A stretch of 61,835 nt of DNA, filler included, from Kipferlia bialata (lineage: Eukaryota): assembly GCA_003568945.1 (NCBI GenBank). It is 2 parts of 2 records of this genome, joined end to end, with 100 filler letters (N's around TTAATTAATTAA, not from the genome) between each part and the next. Parts side by side here need not be neighbours in the genome. Positions count along the whole stretch, not along the records: positions 30,990 to 61,835 come from BDIP01000118.1; 1 more part is not named here. One strand, written 5' to 3'. Below, one piece after another: positions 11,266-61,779 of this stretch. A program made the position numbers and the translations under genes. Every line of letters starts with the position of its first letter. Within the stretch, counting starts at the first letter, position 1. The notes beneath the pieces are model-generated. The model saw only the letters and a list, made by a program, of their open reading frames with translations, did not search any database and was not told the DNA's origin.

Positions 11266-14200
11266 TCAAGCGCTTCCCCATCCTGCAGTGGCCTCTCCAA
11301 AGAGTAGCACCAGCATGGAGGTAGCAGACAGGGCCACTCCAACGAACAGCTGGTATCAGTATCAACAGTATCAGTATAAATACACTATCAGAACTATATG
11401 TATCAGTATCAGTATCAGTACCTGGTCCTCGGTGGTGTCCCTGAGGTGCAGGGCGCCGTCGTCCTGGACGTAGTACCTTGAGGTAAGGGACAGATTGTGT
11501 CTAGTACAGTGAATAGGTTAAATATGGCAAGACAGATGTATGAGGTGCATGCCGCCGTCATGGACGTGGTATCTGCGATGAGGGAAGACATATATGAGAA
11601 ATGTAATGTGTTGGAGAGAATTCTATGCAAGGAATGCAGTGAAGATGTAAATCACTGTGGTTGAGACAGAGAGAGAGAGAGACCACTCACTTCTTGCCAG
11701 GTGTCAGGCCAGAGTGCACTGTGGAGGTACCACCGGTGGTGGTGACTGGAGTAAGCAACGACAATATGACAGTAATTTGATAGTGGAAGTACTTTAGGAT
11801 AGAGAGCAGTATATATACTGTATATGTATGCATAAGATACTCACCATATACCGTATCCCCATCGGCACAGTCTGCAATGGCAATGCCCAGGTATGCATAT
11901 CACATTGTATATATATAACATACTATATATACACTATCATACCATATGCCATGTCCCCATCGGCACAGTCTGCTATGGCTATGCCCAGGTATGTATATCA
12001 CATTGTATATATATAACATACTATATATATAATATACTATATATATACTATCATACCATATGCCATGTCCCCACTTGCACAGTCTGCAATGGCTATGCCC
12101 AGGTATGTATACCATATTGTATATATATAACATACTATATATACACTATCATACCATATGCCATGCCCCCGTCGGCACAGTCTGCAATGGATATGCCCAG
12201 GTATGTATAGAGAGTGTATTACTATACTATACTATTGTATATCACTCATCATACCATAGGCCATGTCCCCATCGGCACAGTCTGCAATGGCAATGCCCAG
12301 GTATATCTGGAGAGTGTATATATAATACACAATATATATACTATCATACCATATGCCATATCTCCGTCGGGACAGTCTGCTATGGCAATGCCCAGGTACG
12401 TGGGGTCAGTGGCGATGGTGGCACCGGTGGAGATGGTTGCACTGCCGTCGTCATTCAGGAAGACCTGGGAATGAGGGAACGACAAGTCTTCTAATCTCTG
12501 ACAGGAAGATATAGAGAGAGACTGTGCTCGATAGAGAGAGAGGGAGGCCGAGAGAGAGAGAGAGTACGCACTGGGAGTCCAGCTGTGATGGCACCAGCGG
12601 CAGTGAGGGAGAATGTGTTTCCGGCGTTGTTCCACTCGAGTGCACTGGTGGCAGTGTTCATAGTCATGATCTAGGGGGTGAGAAGGGTCTTAACATCGAA
12701 AGAAGAGAGAATGAATATTGGTATAGAGAATAATCAGATGTGCTCAGGGTCATGATCCAGGGGTGAGTGGATAGACATATATCACACACATATGTTCGTG
12801 CTTATAATCCAGAAGCTGAAGCTGACTCAAAGTCATGGGCACTTCAATTGTCTGGTATGTACAGGAGTACCCACCTGACCGTTGGCCCCAGCAGCGGTGG
12901 GCAGAGAGTACTCGGTGCTATCCACACCTAACGTCAGCAGACAGAAACACACACACAGAAGATAACATACACTATGTAGCATAATCGCATGCTAAATTGG
13001 ATGGCGAATAATGATTTGCCGTAAAGATAGCATCTATCTATTAAGGTACTCACCCATTGTGAATGCGTCCGTGGTGACCTTGTCGAAGGATGCATCGGCA
13101 CCAGATACATTGCCAGTGGCACTCAGGGTGCCTGGGGTTAGAGTGAATAACAGTACCAAGGATACTTCCTAGAAACACTGGTATATGTTTGGTACTACTA
13201 GATGTGTATAGGTACTGGGACCGTGCCTGTGATTGCGGTGTTGCCTGCATCCAGGGCAGCGAGGGTGGACTTTCCAGTGACGCCGAGGGTGCCTCCGATG
13301 GTGGCGTTGCTGGAGACACTGGGGGTAAGAGAAGGGATGATAGAGAGACAGAGAGAGAGAGGGAGAGTACCTGAGGGTGCTGCTGAGGGTGGCTGCTCCG
13401 GTGACACCAAGAGTGCCGGTAATGGAGGCATTGGAGGACACAGCGAGGGTGCTGGAGAGAGTAGTGGCGCCAGTCACAGTAAGGGTGCCGCCGAGGGTTG
13501 TGGTAGCAGGGCCGGTCACTGTGAGGTTGCCGCCGAGGGTAGAGGTTCCAGTGACAGCAAGGGTGCCGGTTAGAGAAGTGGCCTGGGCACTAGCGACGGT
13601 GAGGCCACCGCTGAGGGTAGTGGCTCCAGTAACACCGAGAGTGGAACCTACAGTAGCAGCGCCAGTGACGCCAAGGGTGCTAGAGAGCGTGGCTGCTCCG
13701 GTGACAGAGAGAGTGCCTCCTAGGGTGGTGGTCTTGGTGGCATCGACGCNNNNNNNNNNNNNNNNNNNNNNNNNNNNNNNNNNNNNNNNNNNNNNNNNNN
13801 NNNNNNNNNNNNNNNNNNNNNNNNNNNNNNNNNNNNNNNNNNNNNNNNNNNNNNNNNNNNNNNNNNNNNNNNNNNNNNNNNNNNNNNNNNNNNNNNNNNN
13901 NNNNNNNNNNNNNNNNNNNNNNNNNNNNNNNNNNNNNNNNNNNNNNNNNNNNNNNNNNNNNNNNNNNNNNNNNNNNNNNNNNNNNNNNNNNNNNNNNNNN
14001 NNNNNNNNNNNNNNNNNNNNNNNNNNNNNNNNNNNNNNNNNNNNNNNNNNNNNNNNNNNNNNNNNNNNNNNNNNNNNNNNNNNNNNNNNNNNNNNNNNNN
14101 NNNNNNNCGTTGTCGGAGAAGGTAGAGGTGCCTGTAACCGCAAGGCTGCCTCCAAGAGTGGTTGCCATGCCAGTAGCAACGCCAAGGGTCCCATTGAGGG

Positions 14201-24326: not shown

Positions 24327-24639
24327 GTCACAGATTGGAATATATTCATCTAGTCGTTCTTTGATTGGTGTGCGATGGAATGTCTCTGCATATTGACGAT
24401 AGATACAGTAGAGAATACTAGAGAACCACTCGTGGTAATAGATACCCTCACAGTGGATACAGTGGAGAGTCGGTATGGAATCAGCTAGCTATCCATGGCA
24501 CCCTGGAACAGGGTCTGCCTTAACATGTATCACTCTAAGGTGGGTATAGTCTTACGCAGTTCATTCCTTCCTCCATTGCACGCAACCAGTCTCTACCACA
24601 TGGTGATATGTCTCTACAGTAGTTTGATGGTCAACGGTG

Positions 24640-27600
24640 ATGTCGATAGTGAATGACACTAGTAGGTAAGTGACCCAATCACAACACCACTCCCAGACTC
24701 ACTGACAGAGAGATGTTGCGTTCTGCATCCTCCACATCCTGTGTCTGGTGGTCACATACCCACACTGGCTACATGCTGATAGCACTGTAGACCAACTCCT
24801 TGCCCTATACATGCTGATTGCCCCAACCTACACTGTGGTTCACCAGTGTCTTGGGTGTGTGGCAGACCTGGTACCCGAGTGGGCCCGGCTGGTGGAGTGG
24901 GTGATACGTGTAGTACCTATATCTGCTGGTGTAGGGACAGCCTCTTTCGTATGCAACGTACTCCGGCCAGATATAGGTCACAGGTTACTCACCTACATAA
25001 CCCTCCTTGCGCTAGTTCCACTGCTTACTGCTTCCGTGTTCCTGCCCAGTACCATGATTCAGGCAGAGACCACCTACCGCAGAGCCATAGCCACACCTGT
25101 ACCATGGTGCATGTCCACTGGGATATACTCTACAGCAGCGTGGACCACATACCTCTGGACACATACCCTCACTGCACTGGGGGTCTGGATAATAACAGCA
25201 ATACCAGTCTCCCACCTGTTAAGGAGTGTGATCTGCCTTACCCGTGCATGTGGTGTGGCATCAGTGACCTGGTTCTGTCCTGTCATGACGTACCCTCCGG
25301 CACTCAAGCTGGTCAAGCGCAGTATCGACAGAGTGACTGGTGCGATGGTTGTTCCGGTTGAGGTCACCCATGATCCGAGGCATAGGATCAATCGAGTGTG
25401 TATCAGATACCTCTCACTGTACACTGTTCCTTATGCGACTACTGCATCTCGGGTGGCAGTGGTTTCTTCTATATACCGAGAGCTCAGGAGTATAGTGCAG
25501 CTCGATGTCGCTGGTCGAGTGAAGGCACTATACCCCTATATGCCGGTGTGTGAGTGTCCTCTGGAACAAGAGGGACATCTCAGGAGACTCACTCTGAAGG
25601 TGATCCCTATTGCCGCTGAGCCCACAGACTATGTACACGAGTACCAAGTGGTTTGCCTGGGAGTCAGTAGGGTCAGCCTTGCTTGGGGGATATACTCTCA
25701 GTGCCTGTCATACCTGGCCCTGAGGTTCGCAATGCTAGAGATACCAGCTGTCAAGATTCTAACCGGGTTATGCGAAGGCCTCTTCTTCACCCTTCCCAAC
25801 ACTGCACCACCTGACCCCAATGAACCCATGACTGTTACATACGCAGATGATGTGTTGCGTATGTTGCAGGTATGATATATGTATACACAGTACTCGTGCA
25901 TCGTAGGTATATCTGCTTAGTTGATATATATATATATATATGAGCAAGAGTGTCTCATTGCTAGGAACTTCTAGGCGACCCTCAGTGTCTACCCATCCAC
26001 TCAAGACTGCCCCAGTTGGTGAGTAGTATACGAGCACAGACCCTGTACATGAGTGCAGAGGAGAAGCAGAGTCTGATTCCCGACAGCTCCAAGATTACAG
26101 AGCTGAGGACCCCAACGGTATATTGTGTATTAGTGTTATAATCTACACCTACTGAGTGTCCAACGACCATACATCTGACACTACAGAATGCGGATCCAGT
26201 CCCCTCCAGCATGTTGTTGTCCCAGTCATTCACTTCTCCAGCGATGGAAGACGCTGAACTAAAGTTTGATATGCCCTATGCCGAGGAGATTCCGTGTCTT
26301 GTAGCTGACTCACCTGCTGGAAGTGTATCCTTCTCACTATCGCACGAAGATCCCAGCGCTGAGATAATGAGCAATGCTGTATCTCTCAAAGACTGTGATA
26401 GGATGAGACCAGTCCGAGCCAGCTGGGTTATGTCGTTCATCGATGGTAAGGGACTACTGCATGATGTGTCGAAATATCGAAAAGTAACAATGAGGGTATA
26501 TGGGCTAGCTTATACCAGAGGGCCACCATCTTGCCGCTGTGGCAGTGTACAGACGATGGCTAAGGATGCTGCGTATCTGTGCACCCGACGGTTCCTGTGA
26601 TACTGATGCCGAAGCCTTAGAGCTCCTTGCATATCCACACCACATACACCCAGATGATTTGCCAAAGGTAGAATCACTATTGCGGATACATCATCAATAA
26701 GAATGACCCCTAATCGTAGGTGTATGGAGTAATGGGTGCAATGGCTGAGGCTCTGCCGAAAGAGCTTTTCATATGCGCATTCACGTACCGACAACTACTG
26801 AGGCCTGAGAACCCTGGTGTATACACATTCATGAGGACAATAGGGTATGTGTCAGTGTGCTGTAGTTCTATGTTCAGTCAATATTGTTGACACAGTGTCT
26901 ACTAACCAGTGGATGGTTCCATCTTACAATCTAGGTCGGTTGTCAGGGGGCAAACTGATAAGAATCCTCTTACGTATTCTGGCTACGCAGAGCGGATTCC
27001 TCCTAGTCTGCGTGATGAGACGAGGATCCAGCCTGAAAAGGATAGTGAGACAGGCCAACATACAAGTCAGATTGGGGGTTTCGAGCTACAACGACCCGCA
27101 CCTTTGTCATACCCTACCGACGGTTCTAAGGGGTTTCTAGTGGAGCACCGTCCCAGTGGGCGTCCCCACATTATCCTACCAACATCCCTAGTGCAACGCA
27201 ACTCTAGTCTGGTGACCTGTGAGTCGTGTGTTGACCAGATCATACTGCATTCACACACACTATGTGGTATGTACATGCTTACCTACTATTACTGATATGT
27301 TGGCGGTCCGGAATCCTAGTGGTTGAGGTGTGTGTGAATACTGATATCCAGCGTCCTGTCCGTCTCGCTCTCTGTTTGAAAGGGCGGTAATTGACAGACA
27401 CTTTGACGCGCACTCGTTTGATAGTGTCTTTGGAGGCTTTGGATTTGGGTGAGTAAATATATACTATGATTGCTTACACCCACTTCAGTATTGAATACTA
27501 ACTTCTAAATTCCACTATCCTCTTCACTCATTCGACAGATGGCTGCTACTATATGTCTACATGCACCAGTCAGCGTTTTGTCCAATCAATGTGCACCTAA

Positions 27601-28798
27601 CGTACCGATGTCTCGCCAGAGTCCTGTTCTCTATTCACAGGTACAGTGCGTTCCTCATTTACATTCTTATTCCTCACCGGAGGCTGATGCACGACAACCC
27701 GTTCCACAACGCCGTCCATGCACTGGATTCCCTTCAGATGGTGGTTCTTCTCTCTCGAAGCTTACGTAGCCAGTCAATGGGCCTTGTGCTGCTGCCCTCT
27801 ATCCTGCAACTGCTACTGATGCTTGCAACTGTGTCAAGCAACTTGGACCACCCTCTGGTCTCAAGAGAGTACCTAGCTGCTACTGATAACCCAATAGCAG
27901 TGCTGCATGGACCAGAGGCACCGACAGAGACACATGTACGTAAAACAGGCTGGCAGAATACAAGTGTTTCTGGAAGTGACCATTATACTGCTAACATACA
28001 GGCCGGATGCCTTCTGACCTCAATCTTCCACAGCGCCGGACTCTTTGATACTAGACCGCGCAAAATCGCCTTTGCACGCGACCTACTGGTTTCGACTAAC
28101 CCTAAACGTAGCAAGACTCTTCCGTATCAGCTACTGCGTACAAAGGGTTCTTCAAGGTGGTTAGAGAGAGTGGTTAGTGAAAGGCTTGTTCCTAGTGCCA
28201 TCGCAGAACCAGAAGGGGAGCTAGGTAATAGTGGATGTAAACACTAAGACCTAATGACTTTTTAACAATTCTTTTCTAGTGCCATAATTCTAGGATTGAA
28301 TTTCTATCCTAACTGCATTTCAGTCCTCATTCTAGGGCGCGCCCAGACTATATCGTGCCTCTCCCTAATGCTGATAGGCCACTTGGGCAATGCAGCTAGA
28401 CCATGGCGAGTGTCTGAGAGGTTCGCAAGGTCTGCTATGAGAGAAGAGTTCATATCCGGCAGGCTTGAAAGAGAGGCTGGTATGATAGTGCCAGCATACA
28501 GGAACGCAGAGAGTGGGACTGCATCGCCTGAGCTCATAGTGGCGGTGTGCCAGGTGGGATTGTAAAGCAAAAGTATTGGTGACTAAGGGTAGTCTAACAG
28601 TGGTTATCGAATATTGTCTGACCCTAGGTTAACCACTTTGACACGAGGGTGCTTCCCCTCTTGAAAGCACACACTGCATACATGGACAGACTAGGTCTTC
28701 GGGAAGCACAGCAGTTGGGACAGGACCTGGTGCACAGGGCCACTTCCAACAGAGACAAGTGGAGAGAGAGAGTGGACAGTCTATCTGAGGAGCAATGA
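24640..28798 (+). CDS. Multi-pass membrane protein with C-terminal class I cyclic-nucleotide phosphodiesterase-like domain (degenerate); start and middle exons uncertain
   Basis: Hydrophobic ORF 24748-25875. PDE motifs DNPFHNAVHALDSLQ, LDHP..R.YL.AT.NPIAVLH, LGNAARPW.VSERF...MREEF..GRLEREAG. Confidence 0.7.
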
Positions 28799-29149
28799 GC
28801 ATACGTCTAACCTAGTACCATATACCATACCGGCAGGGACACCACCTCTCTGCATCACGAAATCTACCAGCACACACACAAGAATAGAAGCGTTCTTGGA
28901 GGCCAATCAGATAACACTCATAGGGACACAAGTTTGCGACACAAAGTTAGAGTAGTCTACCAACTCCACTGATTCAATAGAGTCATCATTGTATTGCTAC
29001 TGAAGAGAAATCAACATACTGTTAGACTTGACAACAGAACTAATTATCACATGAACACGCACACTTACAATCGATTAACTCACGAGCTATATTAACCACA
29101 CTCTAAACCAAGAAACTGACAACACCACTGGATGATTACACATATCTTA

Positions 29150-30598
29150 ACCTCTTGGGATATCAGCGAACCCTATCTGAACAGTAGATGCACATACATG
29201 CAGGCCCTAGATATCCCACTCCTTAGTCTCTGGGGATATGAGCACCGGATCAGGCACTCTCGGACTCTGACTCGATTGTCTCGGATATGCTATGGGAGGA
29301 AGACACGCCCCTATCAGACTCAGGGTCCGAGAAGTCAGGGACCACAGTGGGAGAGTGGGTCCGTACTCTCTCTCCCTCTCTCTCTCTCACGCTAGCCGCA
29401 TGCTGCGGTGAGGTCTTGAGTGGAGAGGGCCGATACAAATACATACACTACTCTCACATGTGTACTGAAACTATTCATGTGTCATTCTGTATACCTATAA
29501 GCAAACATCAAAGAGTCAGACACAGCAAGAGGTCAGTCGTTGTACCACCATACATGTATCGATATATACACCACCCTACCTGCGTCCTTGGGTGTATGGA
29601 CCCATGTGTGTGAGGTACTGAGCCAACAGTACTCTCAGACGTCATCCTAGGCACTCCGGGCATGACATCATATGCCTCTCTCTCTCTCTCTCTGCCATAA
29701 TTGAGTTGGAGGTTAGCACTAAAGTACGGTGATGCAGGCACCGTCCCCATCCCCCCCTGCTGGCAGGTTGGAGAGTGTCCCATCCCCCTCTCCCCACCCC
29801 TTGGTGCCACAGGGGTCTGGGACATTATGGATGTCTGGACACCCTGATCCACAACCCCCCCCTCTCTCTCTCTCTCTGCCTGTCTGTCATCCTCCAGGGT
29901 GGAGTGTCTCTGGTAGGCAGGGGGAGAAGCTGAGGTTAGATGGATATGTATAGAGAGAGAGAGAGAGAGAGACTAAGAGAGAGAGAGAGAGAAAGAGAGA
30001 AATACAATGGAGTGTCTAGCAGAGAGAAGGGGAACTGGGGATCAAGTAGCAAACGCAGACAGACTTACACAATTCCGAGGCCTTGGGTACTTGAAATTAG
30101 AGTATCATTCAGTGGAAGGTGACATATAGAGAATCAGAGTTTAGGAAATAGGACAGGGGGAAAGGCTTGAGATAACGCGTGTGTGTCTGGCCGGTATACG
30201 TCAACACAACTAGTCTTTACTGTCACACAACCCCCCAACCCCCCCCACCCTCTCCATTCACAGTTATACATACCCACATGTCTCAACTCTATAGACATGC
30301 ATATGTACATGAGGATACATGACCCACCTGCTCTGTACTGGTAGTCAGACACAGGCACTGCAGTGTAAGGGGGCATGATGGGCTGGGGGTGAGAGGGAGA
30401 GAGAAGGCACCAGGGCGGAGGGAGAGAGAGGGGGATGACAGGAAGGGCTATATTGGCTAAAAGAATAGTAAGAGCTGTAACTGGATGACAGGTAAAGCTA
30501 GTAAAGAGGAAGACACGTGTATATCAGTGCCCATAGTTCTGTCCCACCTGACCATTGATTTGGACGCTGGACTCAGTCTCTCCCCTGCAGGCAACAAC
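29150..30598 (-). CDS. 3' exons of an unidentified low-complexity protein (5' part lost at the contig linker)
   Basis: Several CTSACCCCAG/CTAACCTCAG acceptors and GT donors flank short open segments (for example ORF 29508-29852). Frame ambiguous. Confidence 0.3.
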
Positions 30599-30889
30599 TG
30601 GGGTCAGGGACAGAGGGACATGAGGATCCAATAGTTAGATAGATGGTCTAGTAACTAATACCACGTGAGTGTCCCTGGGACAGAGACTCGCTAGAGGCAG
30701 AGTCTGTGGACTCCTGACTGAACGACTGATGGTCAGAGGGGGAGTCAAAACATGAGAGTATGGTAGTAACCAGTTTAATAGTATTAAACTAATACCAATT
30801 TAATAGTATTTAATTAATCCCAAAGAGAGATTAATGAAACAGGGGGGGGGGGGCAAGGGAATGATGGCCAGCTAGAAACCTATGATATA

Positions 30890-30989
30890 NNNNNNNNNNN
30901 NNNNNNNNNNNNNNNNNNNNNNNNNNNNNNNNNTTAATTAATTAANNNNNNNNNNNNNNNNNNNNNNNNNNNNNNNNNNNNNNNNNNNN
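30890..30989. other. Artificial 100-bp assembly linker N44-TTAATTAATTAA-N44
   Basis: A six-frame-stop palindrome centred between two 44-N runs. Confidence 0.9.
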
Positions 30990-31040
<51 letters not shown>

Positions 31041-31081
31041 GGGCCGCATATACATGTAGCTAGATAGTATTCAGCCCATAC

Positions 31082-34063
31082 CTCCTGGCCCTCCTTGTGT
31101 GTCACAACCACAATGCCTGTCAGCCTGTTCTTGTACACAGGGTAGACGGGGGAGTCCTCGGCCCAGGTGGTGGCATCAGCCTAAAGTAAGGGAGTTAGGG
31201 GGATAGAGAGAGAGAGAGAGAGGTGTCCACGTACCTGGTGTGGCAGCATTCTGCAAGGCCCCCTGAGCGTGTGCACCCCGGTTGTGTCGTCCTCTGCCTG
31301 TGCCCCCTCATCCCCAGGTGCCTGGGTCTCAGTCTCCATCAGGGCAACCTCGGCCTGGGGTGAGGGGCAAGCTGATAGAGAGAAGGGTGAATCTATCTGT
31401 GTATATCATACTCCCTCTGCCCACCTTGTATGCCTCTGCCGTGTGTGCTGCAGCCCTCCTGATGAATATGAGCATGTCGTCCTGCTCCTGTGTGCCACTC
31501 CTCTCGCGCAGGGACAGCTTCACATTGCGGACCTGGGGTGAGCGAGGCATATACACTGCAGAGAGAGTGATATACACTATACCATACCCACCTCTGCCTT
31601 CTTCTTCTTGACCCTCTCGGCATAGTGGGCGGGGTATGAGTAGGATGCCTTAGGGGCAGAGCAGGCCAGCTGGGTCCTCTTGGAGAGGGAGAGAGACCCA
31701 TCGGTGGGGAGGAATGCCATGGGGCTGAAGCCTAGGCACAGGGTGAGCATCATGGGGTGCCAGAACCAGCCCTGGCCAAACAGACACGCAGACACCATGC
31801 CTAGGGGGTGAGAGGGGGTGTGAGAGAGAAGAAGAAGGGTTATATGCAGGAGGGTCGTACCGAGAGCTGAGTTGAACCCAAGCCTGGTCTTGAGCTGGAA
31901 GGACACATTGCCCCCAGAGGCATTGATGAGGCCCAGGGCCATACGGGCGCCAAAGAGGGCGAGGGGGTCTCTGTTGCGCCTGGGGTTAGGAGGACATCAC
32001 ATGCATAATGCATGATGCATTTGTCAATCTACTGAGTCACACAACATACAAGTATCTGTGGCAAGGGAGGTATATATACATACATCGTTACCTAGACCTA
32101 TATATATATATATATATATATACAATATAGTGTTATACCTAGTGTTGACGAGCATGTCAACCAGTCTCTTCCTGAACTCGGCTGCATAGATGGGGGTCTC
32201 TGGGGGGTCAGAAGAGGATACACTACAACGCACTCAATAAGTCACACCCTCCTACCTGGCAATGGCTTTGACTGCTCTGCCTTCTGCTTCTCAATCTGGT
32301 CCTCCTTGTCCTGCTTACGCTCCTTCCTCGACTTCTGCTTCTTCTTCTTGCCATTCTTCCCCTTCTTTCCCTTCTTCTCCTCCTCCTCCTCTGCCTCCTT
32401 CTCGTCCTCAGGCAGCTCGGGAGAGGGCTGGAGCTGCAGCACAAGGGCCTGGGGTGAGGGTAGAGCATACATGAATATGGTCAAAGAGAGAGAGGAACAT
32501 GGAGGTGGTACATGTACTATGTGTGGTCACCTGAGCCATGAGGGAGCTCTGCACCACATAGGACTCCAGGGAGCCCTCGAGGTCCCTGAGCAGGGTGAGG
32601 GCCCTCCTGTTGCCTGTGCCGGCACAGGCCAGACCAATGCCCAGGGCAGCGCCAGACCTGGGGGTGAGGGGTATAGAGGATGTATCAACATGGTTACACT
32701 GCAATACAGTTAGTACCTGATGTGTGGGGAGTATGACCGAGTGGATAGGGCCAGGGCCTTGACAGTCTCCTCGGGGTCTGCCAGCAGAAGGGCAACGCCG
32801 ATGAAGGCAGCACGGCGGACCTGACGTCAGATGGGATACCATGCGACACATGATACAATTATTAAGTACTGTCACTCCCACATACATTGTCGTCTGAGTC
32901 GTTCATGCCGAGTCTGAGCAGCAGTCTGAGCTGGTCGAGGTCACCCGACCCGGCAAAGGCGAGGGCACGGGCCCAGGCAGCACCCTCCCTCATCTGGGGT
33001 CAGGGAGGGGATAGGTGGATATCAATACACACACACACATATATTATATATATATATATATGTAAATATATATAATATAATAAACACAACATGTACCTGG
33101 GGCCTCCTCTCGTTCTCAAGAGTCTTGATGAGGGGGAGTGCGTCCTGGCGGCACTCGTAGCATGCGAATGCAAGTCCCACTGCACATGACCTGGCCACCC
33201 TCTCGTGCTCAGTGTCTCTGGCCTGGTTCAGCATCATGTCCAGCCTCTCCTGCAGGGGCTGAAGGTGAGAGGGGGGGGGGGGGGGGTACAGGGAGATGGA
33301 AGAGAGAGAGAGAGGTCGGTACCTGTCCTGCCTCTGTCTGTGCCTTGGACACACTGCCGAGCATCAGAAGGCCACAGCCAAGGGCACTGCCCATGCCTGT
33401 GGGGTGAGAGAGGTCTTATACATGTATGGGCTATACAGAGATATATACGCATATACAGTATCCCACCTGTGTCTGGGTCTGCACTGAGTGTGACAGGCCA
33501 CAGGTCATCAAACAGAGTGATGTCATGGGTACCCATGGAGACAAGGCCCATGGACAGACCTGGGGGTTAGGGGCAAGGAGATGAACGACAGAGTAAGAGT
33601 GGGTGTATCTATATACCTGTTGCGTGGAGCATGGGTGCGCTCTGTGTCTGTGTGGCCATCTGGAGGTAGGACAGCAGCTGGGGCAGGGGGGAGTGCTCGG
33701 ACTTGGAGGCAGCGCCGGCATGGCACAGACCAAGGGCAAACACAGCGCCTGGGGGGGTAAGGCTAGTGTATATTAAGAGAACTAGTATATGTACGTGTAC
33801 GTGTCACCACAATACCTGCTGGGGCGTATGCAGCCTCGGGGTCCTGGGTGACAGCTGCCACAAACTGGTTGTCTGGGAGGTAGGCCTGGAGCCAGCTCTG
33901 AGGGGTCAGTCACAAGGGAATATGTAGTGTTTGTGTGGTGAGTGTATATATTTATAACCACACCTGGTCCGTGATTCCGAATCTGTGGATGGCGCCCATG
34001 GACGCCACACTGGCAAAGATGACCCAGCCCTTGGCCTGCTTGAACCATCTGGGGTGAGGCAGG

Positions 34064-35107: not shown

Positions 35108-35452
35108 ACGCTATCCGGATATACTACTGCTTCTGTGAGGGGAAGACACCTGCCATTGAGTGAGACGCATGAAATCTCTCTGCACCCTCAATCTTGTTTT
35201 TGTCACACTGTACCCTTATTCGGGTGTCTTTTTTAAAGCCGAATCTGTGCGATTAATAATCGTACTGTTGATTCGCGGATGGAATCGTGTACTTGTCAAC
35301 AGGCACTGCTCTCTTCATCAGAGACTGTTCAGTGGAGGAATAACACATGTATAGGACTTCAGGTTGGGTGTGCGAAATAGAGCGACTTTAATCTTCAATG
35401 ATGTCTTCCCCCCCTTGTCCTCTCTCTCCCACTGTCTACAGTCACTTAACTT

Positions 35453-35650
35453 ATGCCAGGCCGTGGTAGATACAGTGCCACCTATGACGAGGACACCCAG
35501 GACGAGTACAAGGTGTGTATCAAAGATAGTGTGTCCAGTAGTTACCTATCCTCTCTCTCTCTCTCTCTGTCTACTCTATATACATATATATACTTATACA
35601 GGATGAGTACAAGGTGTGTTTCCCTATCTGCTGAGGATGGCACCATGCAC

Positions 35651-35686
<36 letters not shown>

Positions 35687-38657
35687 CTCTCTACTCTCTA
35701 TATGTATATATATACTCATACTATCTCCAGGATGAGTACAAGGTGTGTGTCCATATTCTCTCCATCTTTCTCTCTCTGTCAAGACTCCTTCATTCATACC
35801 CATTTTATCAATACTGTTCCCCGTAGATATATGTCTCTCTTTGCTCCCTCACTCTCTCCACCAGCCACTCTGCCTATGAACATACTAAAATACATAATCC
35901 TAGCGCGAGACCAGTTCTGTAGTGTCTCTCCCTCTCTCTCATACTCTCTCTTTCTCTTCCTATACAATTTGTGCACATAACCCCAGGGCCAGACCCGTCT
36001 TACAGTCTCTCTCTCTCTCTCTCTCTCTATCTTTCCCCCTCTCTTTCCATACAAGAATTCCAATGTATATGAATGCACATATATAACCCCAGGGTCAGAC
36101 CCATGCTGCAGTCCAGCTCCGGCTAGTGTTTGTGAGGAAGGTCTACATGGTGAGTCCAGAGTACCCCCCCCCCTCTCTCTCTCTCTCTTCCTATGAATAT
36201 TTGCATATGGATAGTGTATCTCTCTCTCTATAGGTCATGGCCATCTCCCACTATATATATCTCTCTCTCTATGAGTTAGTGTAATCGTATGTCACTCACT
36301 CACTTAAGGTCACAGTCTCTATGCTGGCCATCACGCTCTCTCCTTCTCTCTCTATTTGACTCTCTCTTTCTCTATGTATGAATACTAATGTCCCTTCTGA
36401 TACTAGGCCATGGCCTCCATGCTGGCCATCACTATCTCCTCTCTTCTCTCCCTCTCTCTCTATCTCTCTCCCCCTCCCCCATATATGGCCATCCCATCCC
36501 CTATCTCTCACTCTCTCTCGCTAAAATATGTAAGTTTAGATATATATATTGGTATACACATATTTCACTCTAGGTCATGGCCTCTATGTTAGCCATCACA
36601 GTGGCAGAGTGTGCACTAGTGAGAGTGCCAGGTATATATATATATAGTATATATATGTAAAAAGAAAGAGAGAGAGAGAGAGAGAAAGAGAGAGAGTTAC
36701 AGGGGCAGAGTGTGCACTGGTGAGAGTGCCAGGTATAGAGGGATAGATATATGTATATTGGTATATATACGGAGAGAAAGGGGGGGGTAAGAGCGAGAGA
36801 TCTATCTGCTGAAAATACCAGGCCTCTCCCCTACCTCTCTCTCTGTCTCTCACCCCAGTTGTGCTCTATGGGGTACTCAGAATGACTAGTCGTGTATATG
36901 AATGTATATATGTAACACCTGGGCCAGACCCATTCTGCCGTCTCTCTCCCTTCCTCTCTCTCCATCTATTCCTCTCTCTATCTCACCCCAGCTGTGCTCT
37001 ATGGAGTACTCAGACTGTTGAACGGTAGCTGGTTCGTTAGGGTAAGTGCATTTACGTTGTGTGCTACGTATATATGTATATATATGTATGTTTGTATATA
37101 TATATATATTTCACCTACAGGGTGCTACAGGGTAAGTGCATTTACCTGGTTTGCTACATGTTGTATCATTTCTGGATTTCATATTACTGGGTCGTATGGA
37201 CTAATTTTTGTCCATTCTCTCTCATGTATGATGTGCAGCTGGGGCCTAGGTGTCAGCCTCTTTGCATCCTTACACATATATAGATACACATGTGTTTATA
37301 TATACATATATATATCTGTGTGTGTATGTATACTATGTTCTTTCTTCCCACCCTAGATGTGCACCTGGTCCCTGGGTGTCAGCCCTCTTATCCTCCTTAG
37401 GGTACTGAGGTAAGCATATTAGACATGTGGGAAATAATATCATATATCGTACTATATTTATCAGCTGTCTTTCAGTATTCACTCTTATTTATTGTTGCAG
37501 ATACTGCTACAATACGATTTAGCGATACAATACCGTCTTATGCCAGGCACAAGAGACATTGCTACCCTGCCAACCTCTACCTGTTAGGGGCATTCACGGT
37601 ACTGGTAGGTATGGAAAGACTACTGACTATATGCCAGTGTTTACTGCAGTATAGAAACACACACATACATATTATGCACTGTATTTACCTTTCCTCAGGT
37701 GGCTCTGTTGCCCTAGCCACCGCCTTCACTCAATATTCTGAATGTACTAAATATTCACTATATACATCTATATTCACATACCTATATATAATTGTATTAC
37801 CTTACCCCAGGTGGCTCTGTAGCCCTTGCCACTGCCTTCACCCTCTATATATATTGTCTATACTATATCTATGCTATATTCATTCAGGATTACATATACA
37901 ATACTTGTTCTAGGCTTACCTCAGGTGGCTCTGTTGCCCTGGCCACTGCCTTCACTGACACCCTTGTGCTACTGGCGGCGGCATCAATAACCCTGGGTGA
38001 GTAAGGCTATATATACGTATAGATAGATATATATATGTATGATATGGTTATTAACACCCTGGTGCTACTGGCAGCGGCATCAATAACACTGGGTAACACT
38101 ATATATATATACATCATTAGATATTGTACTCTGTGTTTACTGACACCCTGGTGTTATTGGTAGCAGCATCAATTACACTTAGTGAGTAAGGATATATGTG
38201 CGTATATACACTTACATATAGTATTCTAGGTATCCTGACACCCTGACTATAACACCTGATATATAAATAATTATAACTATATATATAGTGTGTTCTGACC
38301 CCAGGTGTGTTCTCCGCTGTCACTCTGTATGCAATGACAGCCACCAAGGACTTCCGGTACGAAGTGTACTATATATATTACTATATACTATACATATTGA
38401 TATACTAGGGTAATAATGTGATTGTGTGTTTAACATTGTATGCAATGACAGCGGCCAAGGACTTCCACCACGGATTGTGTGTATATGCTGTGGAGATATA
38501 CGTATGCACGTTGCATAGTATTGTCCTAACCCCAGCTACCTCTACCCCACCATGGGAGGCATCCTGCTGGGCATGGCAGTGGCTGCATTCTGGAGTAGGT
38601 ATATATATATGTAATACTACTGATTATATATAATTGCATATGTATAAATATACACAC

Positions 38658-38695
<38 letters not shown>

Positions 38696-39546
38696 CATCC
38701 TGCTGGGCATGGCAGTGGCTGCATTCTGGTCAAGGTATGACATACATACAATAGTACGGATGCTACATATATTACATGTATCGCCTCCCTGCCAATACTG
38801 TCTTTGTCGCACACTGCTGTTATGCTAGTCGGAATTCATGTATGGATCTACTAAGCATTTATACTCCTTCCACTTCCGTCTTCTCTCTCTCTCCGGAACA
38901 ATTGCATGTATACACATTCTCCAACCACCAACAAGGTTCCTCCCCTTCCTTCAGTCTCTCTCTCATTTAACACTGTATTCATTCATATACACTGTATATA
39001 GAGAGATACATGTAATGATATATATATATTAGTTACATCTCTCCAAGCTCCAGGTTCCTTCCCCTCAATGAGACCCTCTACTGCCTGGCTGGTGCCATTG
39101 TGTTTGCCATGTACCTGATGATAGACACACAGATAGTGGCACAGAGACTGCCTGTAGATGAGGTATTGACTCATTTGTATATATACTCATAAATAGAATG
39201 TTATATGTGATATCGATATAGAGAGTATATTGTTCATAGTTTGATATACTGATGGCGGAAACACAGAGAGAGAGAGAACGGTAGGGAGAGACACAGCCAA
39301 ATGATGAGGTTCTCTTCTATTCTAACGTATCGGAATCAAGTAACTCTATCCCAATTATCATTCCGGTCTCTCTCTCTCTCTCTTCTCTCTCCCTCTACCC
39401 CCCAATTTCAGTGGGTACTTGGCGCCATCGAGGTGTACCTAGATATCGCGAACCTCTTCATATACATCCTGGGCCTCCTGTCCGATAGAGAGAACAAGAA
39501 GGACAAGAAGAGAGAGGAAGAGGAGGAGGAAGAGAGTGATGACTAA
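35453..39546 (+). CDS. Bax inhibitor-1/TMBIM (lifeguard/GAAP-like) membrane protein, about 12 short exons
   Basis: RLVFVRKVY, RHCYPANLYLLGAFT, VLLAAASITLGVFSAVTLYAMTATKDF, LYCLAGAIVFAMYLMIDTQ, DEWVLGAIEVYLDIANLFIYIL. Confidence 0.9.
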
Positions 39547-40099
39547 TAATACCTTCATCAACCCGACTAAATCATCTAGGCTTGATGGAATAGATTGAAT
39601 CGACTTCCATTCAATAGAACAAGAACACAAGGACAAGAAGAGAGAGGAGGAGGAGGAAGAGAGTGATGACTAAATCATCTGGGCAGATGGAATAGATGGA
39701 GTAGACTTCCAATTAATAGTAGAAGAGAGATGAGTCATCTCAGATGACGATTAGTAAGGAGAGTGACTAGAATGGAGTGGAGTATACTTCATGCTTCATG
39801 GTGAGTGCATGTGTATGTTGTGCATAATATCAACTGACAGAATCTAGGAGACTCTGGAATCTTCCTCTTCAGAAATATATATATATATGCTAACTTAGAG
39901 TCAAGATGGGTTTGTGGATATAGTTGGCGGCGAGATAGGACGAAGAGAGGTTAGTGGGAACATTTGTTGGCCTGAGATCTGTGTTTACAATCGTGTGAAG
40001 AAACGCCGAACCCTTTCTTGATTCTCTCAGAGGATGTCATTCAGCTACACTCCAGCTCTTATCCTAGTAACAATCCACCTCAGCTGACAGCAAGTTCCT

Positions 40100-43345: not shown

Positions 43346-46174
43346 CTAGAACAGGTCCTCCTTAGACACCACCCCAGCGACACTCTGGACCAGGGCATGG
43401 TTGACGTGGAGGAGGCACCACTTGCTGAGGGTAAGTGTAGGCGTTTATACTAATGGTGTAACAGTTAAACAAAAAAAGAATTCATCTGACACAAAGTAAT
43501 TGTAATTGTGACACGAGAGAGACGACTTGCTTAGAGTGGTATTACCACTGGTAAGTCAAAAGATCTGCATAGAACGGTGCACAAGTGTACTTACCGTTGA
43601 CTATTCTGAGGTATCAGTTTAATACAAAATATCACTAATGTGGTAGACACATGCACTCACTCATTGACTTGTGTGAGGTATGTGGAGGGTGTCACGGGGC
43701 ACAGGTGCTCCACACGCTGTGTGTCGTGTATCTCCACGCCCCTATAGACATCGCCACTGACTATGTCCAGTACACAGTGTGCAATTTCAGTGCCAGTGTC
43801 GTACCACTTAGGAACAGTGTGTGATACTCTGATGTCGGCAGAGTACACAAGTAGTGCCTTTCCGCTCTGTATGTACCGGGGTGTGTCTAGCAGTGGCATC
43901 TGAGAGTGGCGTGGGCAAAGGGAATCCACCCAACCAGTGTCTGGGTGGTATGTAAAGTGCCTCTGAACCCTGTCTATCTTGGAACTGAAGGAAGACACCA
44001 CCACATGCAGACACGAGTCACTGTAGACAAACATGTCCCCGGCATCTAGTGTGTTAGAGTCGCACACATAAATGATGTGAAATCACACAGTTATTGATAA
44101 GTGATTCAATGACACCTTGTGTTTTCATCGGGTATACCTTACAAATAAATGTACTGTAAACATACAGTTTTACCTTCCTGTCCCAGGCATAGCACCCACT
44201 TCTGCTGGACGTGACTCTCCTCACTGTCATCGATGATGTCAATAGACACACCCCAGTGAGCCAGTTGTACCAGGTAGAGAGACTCCCTGTACACGTGCAT
44301 AACCTGATATGAGCGAAACGGCGTCCAAGCATTCTTAGGTAGCTGATCGACTGTATATCATATACACTCACACATGTATAGACTATTGATTCTTCAATGT
44401 CTCATGCATATAACTACAATAAGGAAAGCTTTCCAGTACTGTGTCGTTACGTCTATATGATTCAGGTAGTGCCACATGATGCGAATGTTTTGAATTGGTA
44501 TAATACACCATAATACATGGTTCCATGGTACACTGTGTTGACACTTTTAGCTGTATTTGTATCAGTAGTATTACACTGTACCGTCTTCTGAAACCCAGTC
44601 TTGGCCATGACAGCAGCAGGCACGTTTCTTTCCCTGATCTCCCAGCGGTCTATGGTGAGAGTGGGTGACAATAGTGATGAGAGTCGAATGGTAGTAGAGT
44701 CATATGGATCAGGTCAATGAATTGGAAAGGAGAATGTGTAATAGACCATTTCGTTGCCTACCTGTGTCAATGGTGTATATGACAAGAGAGGCCTCTGTGG
44801 AGTTTGGTTGTGCTTCATCCCCCTCCTCTCTTGTGCTACGGAATGAGCAGTACAGGTACATCTGGTGGTGGATAAACAACTGAAACAATACAAGTGACTC
44901 CTTAACGTATAATCCAACGATGCCAATGGCATCATACCATACATGTGACTACCTTACCGTTGTGGACTATTCCACAGTGCGTGGTGTTACTCCTCATCTC
45001 GTCGGGGATAGGACCATACTCACCAGTCTCTGTAGGTACCAGACACTGTACACCATCCTTCTCCCGTAGTGTCAAGAAGTACTCACATGCGTTGGTGGAG
45101 GTAACATAGGTGTTGAACACTAGGTTGTGGCCCAGACCTATTGGGTCAAAGCAAACACCCATGTCCCGCACACCAACCCTCTCTAAACGGAATAGTCCAC
45201 CTGTATCCTCTTGACTCCATCGGTGCCTGGTGTTAGGGAAGGTACATTGACGCCTGCTCTAAATACCCCATTAGTTAACACATATACTCATTGTCCCTAC
45301 CTCTCCAACCATAGTTCTTGCCTCTCCCTCACTCTATCCGGGTGCTGCTCCCTCACTCTCAGCTCTTCCTTTAACTTGGTCAGCTGGTCTGCAGACGTGG
45401 CGCCCACATACCACTGTGAGTACTCCTGTGGGAGCCTAGGATCCCCGCACCTGGTGTTATGTTAACTCGCGGAAAGAACTGACTGAATACATGTAAGGAA
45501 CTAAACATATAGATCACTGAAATCAGAGTTATGTGCAGCTATATGAACCTCAGCTGCTACTATCGGGGACATAACTCTGCACCTACCTGTCAACAGGTAT
45601 ATTATATATATATATATATAGTATATGCATACATATGTATATATATACATATATACCTGTCTGGATCCATGTTCGTCATGCTCTGACGAAGCATTCCACC
45701 ATACTCTGTGTCTTCAAGCCAGTAGACATCCTCGTTCCGGCAGTAGACCTGGAACTTAACCAAATATTTATCAATTGAAGTGGAAATGAATCATATTTCT
45801 TGGTGGATTTAGATCTCAAGATAGCCTCAATATGAGACCTCCCCACTCATACTATCAGTATACAGTGGTTCCCAAAAACAGAATACCTTCGCAACAGAGC
45901 CGTCCTCGAACTGAAGTGTCCACTCGAGTGGATACTCCTCGTCTGTGTCGTGAAATTGAGGGGGTCCGCCGAGGAGGGCTTGTATTAGGGTACGTGTAGG
46001 GGGTTTCAACTGGATTAGAGATACCCTGACAGGGTAACCCTGTTACTACTATATTCTATGCCAACCTGTCATGGTCTCGAGATCTAACTCTGGGCACACA
46101 ATACCAACAAAGTGTCTCGTTCCGTCAAACTCGTCAGTGGTGGGGAGATCACCATTCACTATAGTGAACTTCAT
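43346..46174 (-). CDS. Hypothetical protein with degenerate Kelch-like C-terminal region (multi-exon)
   Basis: MKFTIVNGD..; LVIYTIDT|DRWE; HFTYHPDTGWV; VLDIVSGDV..HLCPVTPSTYL; ends LHVNHALVQSVAGVVSKEDLF*. Confidence 0.55.
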
Positions 46175-47079
46175 GCTGAATAGAGACTAGGATTGAGTGA
46201 TGCATATTGGGGGATGAAGACATCTATAATATAGATAGTCCTTATTGACAGGCTGAAGATATCTATAGACCGAGTATTAGAATATCTTTGCTTGGGAAGT
46301 ATGAACTACTTGTTGTTCCTCCAAATGCCTTACACAGTGTGATTCACGCCGTGCGTTACACTCGATCTGCACTACTGGGACTCCCAGACGAAGAGGGGAC
46401 TATCATTTCCTATCCATTATTTGGTGTCACAACACCAAGTCTAAGCTGCTGATCTATTCTAACCAACTACGAAACGACTATTAGGTATACGAATCGTATA
46501 ATACGATGTACCCTCGAATCTCTCTGTCCATATACTCACAGTATGTGTGGGGATACACAATTGGTAGATTCATACTGAGTCTCTCTCTATTTATATCTCT
46601 CTCTCCCTCTTCCTAGAGCTCTCTCTCTCTAGACCTCTTCACTGTCTGACTTGATCTCCTCATGCTCAGTGAGCATTGCTCACCTTGCATCTTGGGGTTC
46701 CTCTAAATTGTGAGTAGTCAGACACATATGCATATATCCTATAGTACACATAATTTACGTTCATGGAAGTCCTGTGGGGTGGAAATATATCATACTACCA
46801 TATGCGAGTAGATTACTTCATATCACGGGGGTCCTCTGGGTGTGGGAAACGGTGGGTTTGTGCAGTATTTATGCCCTGGAATACAACTCAAATGAATGAA
46901 CGTTGCCCTACTGTCAATGATTGACCTAATCTACCACTGTATAACTCATTTACTCATCTTTGGCAAGAAGACTGGATTCCAGTCTGCCTACTTCCAACCA
47001 TCACACAGATTCACACACACACACCACCTCTCTCTCTCCTTGCAGCCCCTCGCTCTATCACGGTGATAGAATCTCACCT

Positions 47080-59634: not shown

Positions 59635-60514
59635 TCAATCTATGATATCCCAGACTGCTCTCTCATAGAGCAGTGTCCCGCCCTCACCATGGATCAACAT
59701 GGTGCCTGGGTATTGGTTACACACATATATGTGAAAGTAGATATATGACATCAATCCCAGTCTTGAATTCATCTGTTCCTATCAGCCATGTGTCACTGTC
59801 CTAATTAGTCAGGATGTGGAAATTAATGAAAATTCATACCATAGATCCCATTATGCATTTGCTAGCCCCCTCTGGTACTATCAACACTGGAGGGTATTCA
59901 TATATATACACCAGTATATAGTATAGTATACCTGTGCCCATAAGACATGCATCACCCCTCTGGTGCAATCAGGGCATCCCCTCCCCCCAACCTCTCGCTC
60001 TATATAAAGTAATTACTGTATATATTTACCTGATCCCATTATGCATGTGTCACTGCCCTCGGGGGCTATCAACATTGGAGTATATACATATATATATACC
60101 AGTATATACTATAGTATACCTCTCCCCATTATACATGTGTCACTGCCCTCTGGTGCTATCAGGGCAGCACCCACAATGCCATCAAGGGGGATGTCGGCCT
60201 CATCCCTATGAGTTAGTATATATCCACAGTACACTCATATATCATACTATTACAATGAATCCATCATGCCATCAAGGGGATGTCGCCCTCATCTCTAAGG
60301 GTCAATATATAATGACATTCTTACTATCTAAATACACATATAGGATATTCAGATATAGTATACAGGTCAGTACATACCTCCATGCAGAGTGGGTACCAAT
60401 GTTACCCCTAATGGTATCACATGCAGCACCATTACTAGGGCTAGGTGTAGATGATACTGTCATGGCAGCCTCTGCATCCAGGACATGCACTCTGCCCTCA
60501 TGCCTAGGGTGAGA

Positions 60515-60567
<53 letters not shown>

Positions 60568-61779
60568 TATACAGAGATCACCCTGCCCTCATGTCTAGAG
60601 TTAGGGGACATATATATATACTTATGAATATATGCATACGCCATGTATGCTCTGGGGATATATACTGCATCCAGAACATGCACCTGCCCTCATGTCTATG
60701 GTTAGTATCAATAAATACAAATATGAATGTATATGGAGATATATACATAGCTATAGACAGAGAAGCAAGACAAGGATACCTGTCCCCCCCTATGAAGTAC
60801 ATGTCCTTGCCCACAGACACACAGGCAGCACTCATGGCCTAGAGTGAGAGTATGTGTATACACACATATCATATATATCAAGTATGGAATGCATCTGCAT
60901 ACGTATACGAGTGGACACTCACACAGGCAGCACTCATGACCTAGAGTGAGAATACATACCAAACACCATACTGACATACTATACAGTGAGACGTCTACCG
61001 ACCTGAAATGGCACTCTGCCCCTTGATGACCTCTCCCACTCTATGGTGGGTGGCACTCTCTCTCCCTCTCCCTCTTGCTCCCCTTCTATGAACTGGCACA
61101 CCAAGTGGGTACGATGGTTATAGGATGCATTGCCTAGGGATCAGTGTTCACAGAACGGAGCTGAGACAGCAATACTCATTGAAACAAATGGCTCTGCAAC
61201 TATGGGAAACAGAAAATACATATAATAATATAATACCTAGTATGTGCACATATCCCTTGTGACATGCTGCTGCAGTGTATGTCAGGTTGAGGGGGGAGTC
61301 AGTGAGTCTGGTCCAACCACCAGAAGTGTCATACTCCCAGACCTGGGGTGACTCTTATCCATTCATGATATCAAGGTATGAGAGGTGCGCTCCAGGCAAA
61401 TGAGGTGTGATATTTCTATATACACACAATGTAAATACTGTTGAGTTCCACACACTTAATGAAACATACCTGCCGAGTCTCTCTCCCATACCCTCCCCCT
61501 ATGACCACGAGTTTGTCATGCACAGAGAGGGCACAGTGGCCCTGTGGGTTAATAATACCAATAATAATCATATGAATAAGAATGAAAGAGAAAGATAGAG
61601 AGAGAGAGAGAGTCTGTGCCGCACAGCCCGGGCACAGTGGCCCTGAGGTTAGATATACAAAAACTAATATATATAGGTGTATATATATATAGGTCGGTAT
61701 ATGTATATATAGAGAGAGGGAGATAGAGAGAGAGAGTGTGTCACGGACAGGCAGGGCATAGTGGCCCTGTGGTAATATA

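What the first reader, a model, noticed from the sequence alone, without database searches (positions are those of the whole stretch)
37690..38190. BI-1 exon flanked by echoes of both halves, almost all differences silent
The real exon is 37925-37996. Two upstream acceptor+5'-half copies read GGC TCT GTT GCC CTA GCC ACC GCC TTC ACT and GGC TCT GTA GCC CTT GCC ACT GCC TTC ACC, versus real GTT GCC CTG GCC ACT GCC TTC ACT: every difference is synonymous. Two downstream 3'-half+donor copies read ACC CTG GTG CTA CTG GCA GCG GCA TCA ATA ACA CTG and ACC CTG GTG TTA TTG GTA GCA GCA TCA ATT ACA CTT, versus real ACC CTT GTG CTA CTG GCG GCG GCA TCA ATA ACC CTG: one A>V among these codons, the rest silent. 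The halves overlap at TTYACT, so recombination could rebuild variant exons.
Basis: seen in the sequence. Interest (0 to 1): 0.8.

Follow-up and report, generated by a model that had tools for sequence, protein, structure and literature searches.

The report
Half-exon echoes skipped by splicing
In a single-celled protist, many exons are flanked by leftover half-copies about 100 bases away that the assembled transcript skips; they are likely scars of faulty DNA-break repair, possibly copied from already diverged alleles, rather than a system for making variant proteins.

Summary
The four half-exon copies are real. One DNA contig at single-copy depth spans them unchanged, and a spliced contig uses only the full exon 37925-37996. 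The gene is a Bax-inhibitor-1 family gene whose protein matches a Kipferlia bialata entry. The echoes are not special to this exon: I list 46 in the window, 18 in this gene, with median spacing 101 nt. Each is a tandem duplication of intron end plus half exon. Splicing skips intact echo splice sites, which points to exon definition. Some silent skew is expected, because the used exon is constrained (null ratio about 0.5). Exon 7 exceeds that (14 silent:2 replacement, p about 0.02 after correction). The pooled codon test also exceeds it, but the site-class test does not, and the rest of the gene sits at 0.47-0.48. Best reading: scars of aborted break repair joined by polymerase theta, partly templated from diverged alleles (0.5); sister-copy duplication with plain decay is the main rival (0.33). 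A variant-building cassette is not supported: the used exon has private bases, variants would be near-silent, and 6 of 21 echo alignments are frameshifted.

The parts
37925..37996 (+). Used exon (exon 7 of my model), 72 nt
   Evidence: Spliced contig joints 37606>37923 (cut +2) and 37995>38304 (cut +1), GT..AG, 0 other letters; matches P0002
37609..37730 (+). Start of intron 6 plus first 5' echo (exon-like part 37699-37730); AG kept, branch-point-position A at -7 lost
   Evidence: 2 silent differences
37731..37842 (+). Second unit: intron-tail copy plus 5' echo (37811-37842); acceptor intact and scoring above the used one (13.3 vs 8.6), yet skipped
   Evidence: 3 silent differences
37843..37924 (+). 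Intron tail in front of the used exon, homologous to the two upstream tails (52/77 and 50/81 aligned columns)
38054..38135 (+). First 3' echo (38054-38092) plus weakened donor and intron-head copy
   Evidence: 3 silent differences
38136..38191 (+). Second 3' echo (38136-38181, homology possibly from 38131) plus a donor identical to the used one over 10 nt, skipped
   Evidence: 9 silent and 2 replacement differences
38212..38245 (+). Faint third remnant resembling the lead-in to the second 3' echo
   Evidence: score 15.8, near threshold
35347..39546 (+). Whole BI-1 (PF01027) gene, 12 exons by the annotated protein, with 18 listed echoes; 16 echo units make up 1827 of 3323 nt of the ten introns measured
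36309..36732 (+). Exon 3 (36574-36631) with two 5' echoes (36309, 36407) ending at exon position 26 and one 3' echo (36699) starting at position 25
11843..12464 (-). Second gene: one exon followed by five 3'-half-plus-donor echoes; the first donor is used and 604 nt are skipped
59767..61773 (-). Third gene (kelch-like motif, label recalled; frames inferred, not RNA-checked) with 10 listed echoes, several frameshifted

Best explanation
The echoes are roughly 100-nt tandem duplications across one splice site that the assembled transcript skips, likely left by aborted repair of breaks inside exons, with the copied strand likely often taken from an already diverged homologous allele. Shown: the head-to-tail anatomy (intron end plus half exon), single copy number, and skipping of intact echo splice sites. 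Inferred: a break end invades a template, copies 85-140 nt past the exon boundary, fails to anneal and is end-joined by polymerase theta. The old 5' half is then stranded upstream or the old 3' half downstream, while an intact exon survives. Duplications that damage the mRNA would be purged, which gives the fixed polarity. Once a unit exists, unequal exchange would repeat it with the same breakpoint. Inferred: splice sites are paired across the exon (last acceptor, first donor), so the echoes are harmless junk that lengthens introns. Inferred and least certain: where echo and used exon differ almost only silently, both were working exons on different alleles until the event, and the echo has decayed only a little since.
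For: DNA and splicing. Intron parts of the units are homologous, with 0-1 of 300 shuffles reaching the score for the six exon-7 pairs, and differ at about 25-38% of aligned columns. Non-degenerate sites of the exon-7 echoes differ at only 2 of 91. Exon 7 minimum changes are 14 silent:2 replacement, p=0.0016, or 0.018 after multiplying by 11 exons. Pooled nearest echoes of 19 exon halves give 38 silent and 29 replaced codons against a simulated replaced fraction of 0.61-0.65, reached in 1-5 of 2000 runs; without exon 7, 32:29, reached in 2-25 of 2000. This is robust to GC bias and high transition bias (2-36 of 1000). In the second gene, real-versus-echo pN/pS is 0.15, and silent states are shared with a different echo at different codons. 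38 of 41 spacings lie in 84-141 nt and echoes cluster by gene (0 of 100000 draws). 5' ends meet 3' starts within 2 nt in 3 of 3 exons with both kinds (about 0.008). The species has PolQ and Spo11 and lacks Ku70 (PMC8516963 Supplementary Data 2 rows), and fornicates lack Rad51A and have two Dmc1. Failed SDSA plus polymerase theta gives such duplications in worms (PMC8654963).
Against: The site-class test does not reject the plain null of 0.5: ratio 0.38 (p=0.17) for 19 halves and 0.45 (p=0.39) without exon 7. The rest of the BI-1 gene gives 0.47-0.48, and nine echoes in other genes give 0.60. Exon 7 was picked after the fact. No second allele or close paralog is visible: no other letters were listed in X1 or X2, and the 10 other proteins found are 26-31% identical. 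The model needs alleles about 25-30% apart at silent sites, which is very high. Junction microhomology could not be read because the flanks have diverged. Worm duplications have a median near 1 kb, not 100 nt.
Confidence: 0.5

Rival explanations
1. Same duplications and same skipping, but always copied from the identical sister chromatid or by slippage. The echo decays neutrally while the used exon drifts only silently, which alone gives a ratio near 0.5; exon 7 is the lucky tail.
For: BI-1 without exon 7 gives 0.47-0.48, other genes 0.60, pooled site test p=0.17-0.39. Frameshifts occur in 6 of 21 alignments. In the second gene, changes private to one echo are mostly replacements (read). It needs no hyperdiverse alleles.
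Against: Codon-level simulations reach the observed skew in at most 25 of 2000 runs and at most 36 of 1000 under extreme mutation bias. Exon 7 echoes differ at 2 of 91 non-degenerate sites beside intron parts 25-38% apart.
Confidence: 0.33
2. The copies were whole working duplicates (mutually exclusive exons, or a since-lost paralog or homeolog) that diverged under selection and were later trimmed to halves.
For: It would give silent-rich differences and diverged introns.
Against: It does not predict that 5' halves lie upstream and 3' halves downstream (one displaced exception at 36922), nor the shared breakpoints. Several echoed exons are not multiples of three (58, 50, 53, 52 nt). No close paralog was found.
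Confidence: 0.09
3. The echoes are a maintained cassette archive that recombines into the used exon, in DNA or RNA, to make variant exons.
For: The halves meet near one point in 3 of 3 exons, and the exon 7 echoes keep their reading frame.
Against: The used exon has 4 private bases. Variants would be almost silent (17:2). The spliced contigs carry only the full exon. No DNA joint between echo and exon is among the rows shown (4 rows not shown). Other echoes are frameshifted.
Confidence: 0.05
4. Assembly artefact in which alleles or strains were laid out in tandem.
For: Spacing near 100 nt resembles a short-read length, and the window has five N gaps.
Against: An independently assembled 1921-nt contig spans all junctions unchanged at single-copy depth. 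Run X1 holds 0.98 of sampled words. No gap lies in the gene.
Confidence: 0.02

Closest known systems
Tandem duplications from failed SDSA joined by polymerase theta (C. elegans helq-1 and brc-1 mutants; PMC8654963, passages read)
   Same: Head-to-tail direct duplications. The paper's range starts near 100 bp. The species carries PolQ.
   Different: Median 101 nt here against about 1 kb there. Here they are fixed in a wild genome, clustered by gene and filtered by splicing. A diverged homolog is proposed as template, not the sister.
End-joining duplications at meiotic double cuts (bioRxiv 10.1101/2020.06.23.168138, passages read)
   Same: Hotspot-clustered duplications; joining between homologs is considered there, which would put two alleles in tandem.
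   Different: Kilobase scale, mouse, mostly ATM-null. Meiosis is not shown here beyond a listed Spo11 gene.
Human F7 intron 7 minisatellite spanning the donor site (PMC1557585, abstract and section list read)
   Same: Repeated exon-end plus donor units in which only the first donor is used.
   Different: One 37-bp VNTR in one gene. Here both acceptor-side and donor-side echoes occur at most exons of some genes, and the last acceptor is chosen, which 5'-to-3' scanning alone does not explain.
[quoted passage not shown]
   Same: An internal duplication tolerated because splicing removes it.
   Different: No new intron arises; existing introns grow.
Silent-cassette gene conversion (trypanosome VSG, Borrelia vls, chicken Ig pseudogenes; recalled, from no call)
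   Same: Partial gene copies beside an expressed copy.
   Different: No amino-acid repertoire, the expressed copy is not a mosaic of the donors, and no variant transcript was seen.

Membership tests
Bax inhibitor-1 / TMBIM (PF01027) | Pfam gathering score reached | tested here: met
   P0002 97.2 bits against cutoff 34.1; my exon model equals P0002 apart from the first residues
SDSA-failure / TMEJ tandem duplication | Head-to-tail direct repeat including flanking non-coding DNA | tested here: met
   Intron parts of adjacent units are homologous; 0-1 of 300 shuffles for the six exon-7 pairs
SDSA-failure / TMEJ tandem duplication | Microhomology or templated insertion at the junction | not testable with these tools
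   Flanks differ at 25-38% and are rich in simple repeats; no ancestral allele is available
SDSA-failure / TMEJ tandem duplication | Polymerase theta present and required | tested here: inconclusive
   Gene listed for the species in a published table; requirement untested
Silent-cassette gene conversion | Expressed copy is a mosaic of donor states | tested here: not met
   4 bases of the used exon occur in neither matching echo
Silent-cassette gene conversion | Donors supply amino-acid variation in intact frames | tested here: not met
   2 of 19 differences at exon 7 change a residue; 6 of 21 echo alignments are frameshifted
Silent-cassette gene conversion | Variant DNA or transcripts in the population | tested here: inconclusive
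   None listed in contigs, but contigs drop rare variants
Mutually exclusive exon array (Dscam type; recalled) | Each copy is a whole exon with both splice sites | tested here: not met
   5' echoes have no donor and 3' echoes no acceptor at exon 7
Intron gain by tandem duplication | Duplicated proto-splice site creates a new intron | tested here: not met
   The spliced contig has one intron on each side of exon 7, 316 and 308 nt
F7-type donor minisatellite | Only the most upstream of repeated donors is used | tested here: met
   First donor used at exon 7 and in the five-echo array

The most novel reading that the evidence does not exclude
The echoes are a genome-wide mutational signature of a eukaryote that repairs breaks without Ku or Rad51A, using mismatch-tolerant Dmc1 and polymerase theta. 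Each echo is a fossil allele left when repair from a homolog about 25-30% diverged at silent sites aborted, so one genome records cryptic recombination in a hyperdiverse protist population. The thousands of echoes expected would also be natural decoy experiments showing exon definition in a reduced spliceosome, and the main engine of intron growth in affected genes.
Probability: 0.35. Interest if true: 0.78.

Novelty: new variant of a known kind. Interest (0 to 1): 0.52.

Why it matters
Three questions become testable from existing data. First, splice-site pairing: protists are held to work mostly by intron definition (PMC2397502, passages), and this species keeps 87 of 174 spliceosomal proteins studied (PMC6679479, passages), yet intact decoy acceptors and donors are skipped in the way exon definition predicts. 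Second, intron growth: echo units make up about 55% of the intron length measured in this gene. Third, hidden sex and diversity: if a genome-wide count holds the ratio below 0.5, the echoes are a record of recombination between deeply diverged alleles that can be read from a single genome. If the ratio is 0.5, it remains a dense, narrowly sized duplication signature in a lineage with unusual break repair. Practically, such echoes can mislead gene prediction.

Tried and rejected
No whole genome was held, so all counts are for this window only. A degenerate pattern of the exon's 5' half found 0 matches in metagenome contigs. The protein found no related locus there (61 pattern hits, none confirmed). 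So there is no second isolate. No listed holder run is on record as RNA; X2 is a guess, though its contigs are spliced GT..AG. Three look-ups of earlier findings returned nothing. One search used a wrong frame for the 11.8 kb array and was replaced. Left out of the pooled counts because the frame was uncertain, the alignment was gapped or the copies were identical: echoes near 16.8, 17.8, 18.2, 21.25, 21.6, 21.9, 37.1, 40.25 and 40.76 kb, and the gapped or most decayed ones in the 59.7-61.8 kb gene. Mutation bias as the cause of the skew was tested and did not remove it (transitions:transversions 11:16 at four-fold sites). Two-way gene conversion between echo and exon, or frequent collapse, was rejected by argument, not by a call: neither can push the ratio below 0.5 while keeping high silent divergence. 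Present-day paralogs as templates: none seen. The splice-site matrix (14 acceptors, 13 donors) is crude: one acceptor is off by a base and one intron was dropped. The acceptor census behind the clustering test is a rough motif count. Literature searches for this pattern found no description in this species; the library lacks most subscription papers. Gao and Lynch 2009 was seen only as a title in a reference list and is not held.

Full report
Observation. The quoted codons are all present. The used exon is 37925-37996. Two copies of its first 31-32 nt, each behind an AG, lie 226 and 114 nt upstream. Two copies of its last 39 and 46 nt, each followed by GT, lie 96 and 185 nt downstream.

Is it real DNA? 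Run X1 holds 0.98 of the sampled words. One 1921-nt contig covers 36704-38589 with no other letter and no gap at depth 419, like the six other pieces listed (373-432), and no allele differences are listed. X1 may be the window's source, so this excludes mis-assembly but is not a second sample.

Which copy is used? A 780-nt spliced contig of run X2 (RNA status guessed by the tool) follows the full exons with 0 other letters and skips 316 and 308 nt around exon 7. The exon model equals database protein P0002, named Bax inhibitor 1-related protein of Kipferlia bialata, apart from the first residues. It reaches PF01027 at 97.2 bits. The ten other proteins found are 26-31% identical, so no close paralog is on record.

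The pattern is general. I compiled 46 echoes in the window, 18 of them in this gene. 38 of 41 spacings are 84-141 nt (median 101), and echoes cluster in a few genes (0 of 100000 draws against a rough acceptor census). Sixteen echo units make up 1827 of 3323 nt of the ten introns measured. The intron parts of neighbouring units are homologous: for the six exon-7 pairs 0-1 of 300 shuffles reach the score, with about 25-38% differences. Support is weaker for several other exons, and absent for the exon-5 tail (131 of 300). So each unit is a tandem duplication across one splice site. The polarity (5' halves upstream, 3' halves downstream) is what any such duplication gives if the mRNA must survive (inference). 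A second gene at 11.8-12.4 kb has five 3' echoes; overlapping DNA contigs tile them except at a skipped TA repeat, and its spliced contig uses the first donor and skips 604 nt.

Splicing. Five of 9 echo acceptors keep both AG and the A at -7, and 10 of 11 echo donors keep GT (crude matrix). The acceptors before 37811 and 36859 score at or above the used ones, and the donor at 38182 equals the used one, yet all are skipped. Taking the last acceptor and the first donor is what pairing across the exon predicts; intron definition or first-come choice predicts otherwise (inference). A survey of 42 eukaryotes infers intron definition for protists but notes that most species use both and that introns above 200 bp favour exon definition (PMC2397502, passages). 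First-donor choice among repeats is known from human F7 (PMC1557585, abstract and section list).

Is the silent skew more than expected? The right null is not 1. If the echo decays neutrally and the used exon changes only silently, the ratio is about 0.5. For: exon 7 has 14 silent:2 replacement minimum changes (p=0.0016; 0.018 times 11 exons) and 2 differences in 91 non-degenerate sites. The five-echo array gives pN/pS 0.15 against the used exon and 0.27 among echoes, from non-independent pairs. Nearest echoes of 19 exon halves give 38 silent and 29 replaced codons, reached by 1-5 of 2000 simulations; without exon 7, 32:29, reached by 2-25 of 2000, and by 2-36 of 1000 under strong mutation bias. 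Against: the site-class ratio is 0.38 (p=0.17), or 0.45 (p=0.39) without exon 7. The rest of the BI-1 gene gives 0.47-0.48, nine echoes in other genes with inferred frames give 0.60, and 6 of 21 echo alignments carry frameshifts. The two tests differ because replacements cluster within codons and two serine-family switches count as silent codons. The excess is therefore probable but not settled.

Mechanism. In 3 of 3 exons with both echo types, a 5' end lies within 2 nt of a 3' start (about 0.008 under uniform breakpoints), which suggests breaks at a shared point in the exon. Metamonads lack canonical end joining, and fornicates lack Rad51A and have two Dmc1 paralogs (PMC8516963, passages). 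Its Supplementary Data 2 lists PolQ and Spo11 but no Ku70 for this species (rows seen; one supplement was not searchable). Dmc1 tolerates mismatches (PMC7809202 and PMC11514202, search listing and start of abstract only). In worms, extended ends that fail to anneal are joined by polymerase theta into tandem duplications of about 100 bp to 10 kb (PMC8654963, passages). In mice, end joining at double cuts yields duplications, and joining between homologs is considered (bioRxiv 10.1101/2020.06.23.168138, passages). I therefore commit to aborted templated repair plus end joining, with a diverged homolog as template in part of the events (0.5). Sister-only copying with decay is the main rival (0.33). 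Former whole duplicates get 0.09, a working cassette 0.05 and an artefact 0.02. The cassette fails because the used exon has 4 private bases, swaps would be near-silent, and no variant contig is listed.

Novelty. Each ingredient is known: internal tandem duplication (PMC2891723, passages; PMC3488318, reference list only), skipped repeated donors, and repair-born duplications. Seven searches found no account of this dense, roughly 100-nt, two-sided pattern in this species. The species' genome paper reports 124,912 introns and has no hit for 'duplicat' in its main text (PMC5874029, passages; supplements not read). Verdict: a real feature, a new variant of a known kind, interest 0.52; 0.78 if the fossil-allele reading holds genome-wide.

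Noticed in passing
window 36893-36942: A copy of the exon 2 acceptor region and 5' half sits 829 nt downstream, between exons 3 and 4, inside another echo unit. It breaks the usual polarity and suggests a double template switch.
   Followed up: partly
window 35599-35613 and 35727-35742: The two echoes of the exon ending at 35512 read AG, 12 coding nt, GT, so they are complete in-frame micro-exon candidates. The spliced contig does not reach them; P0002 has the motif once.
   Followed up: no
window 38730-38732 versus 38594-38596, and near 60920 versus 60818 (minus strand): Two echoes differ from the used exon by a switch between the two serine codon families, keeping serine.
   Followed up: no
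window 39499-39624 versus 39629-39726: The end of the last exon, the stop codon and part of the 3' UTR are duplicated too, so echoes are not limited to internal splice sites.
   Followed up: partly
window 11843-12398 (minus strand): Five-echo array whose last copy has a different, stronger-scoring donor and the most diverged intron head, as if it were the remnant of the older exon end.
   Followed up: partly
window 59767-61773 (minus strand): Kelch-like gene (label recalled) with 10 listed echoes, many with replacements or frameshifts; the 5' echo of one exon ends where a 3' echo begins.
   Followed up: partly
window 13200-15905 and 5650-9050: Long coding repeats: a 120-nt-period array at 15.0-15.9 kb with related repeats from 13.2 kb, and a protein with diverged internal repeats at 5.6-9.0 kb.
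   Followed up: no
window 24000-32000 and 44000-56000: Stretches with acceptor-like motifs but no listed echo, in contrast to the echo-rich genes.
   Followed up: no
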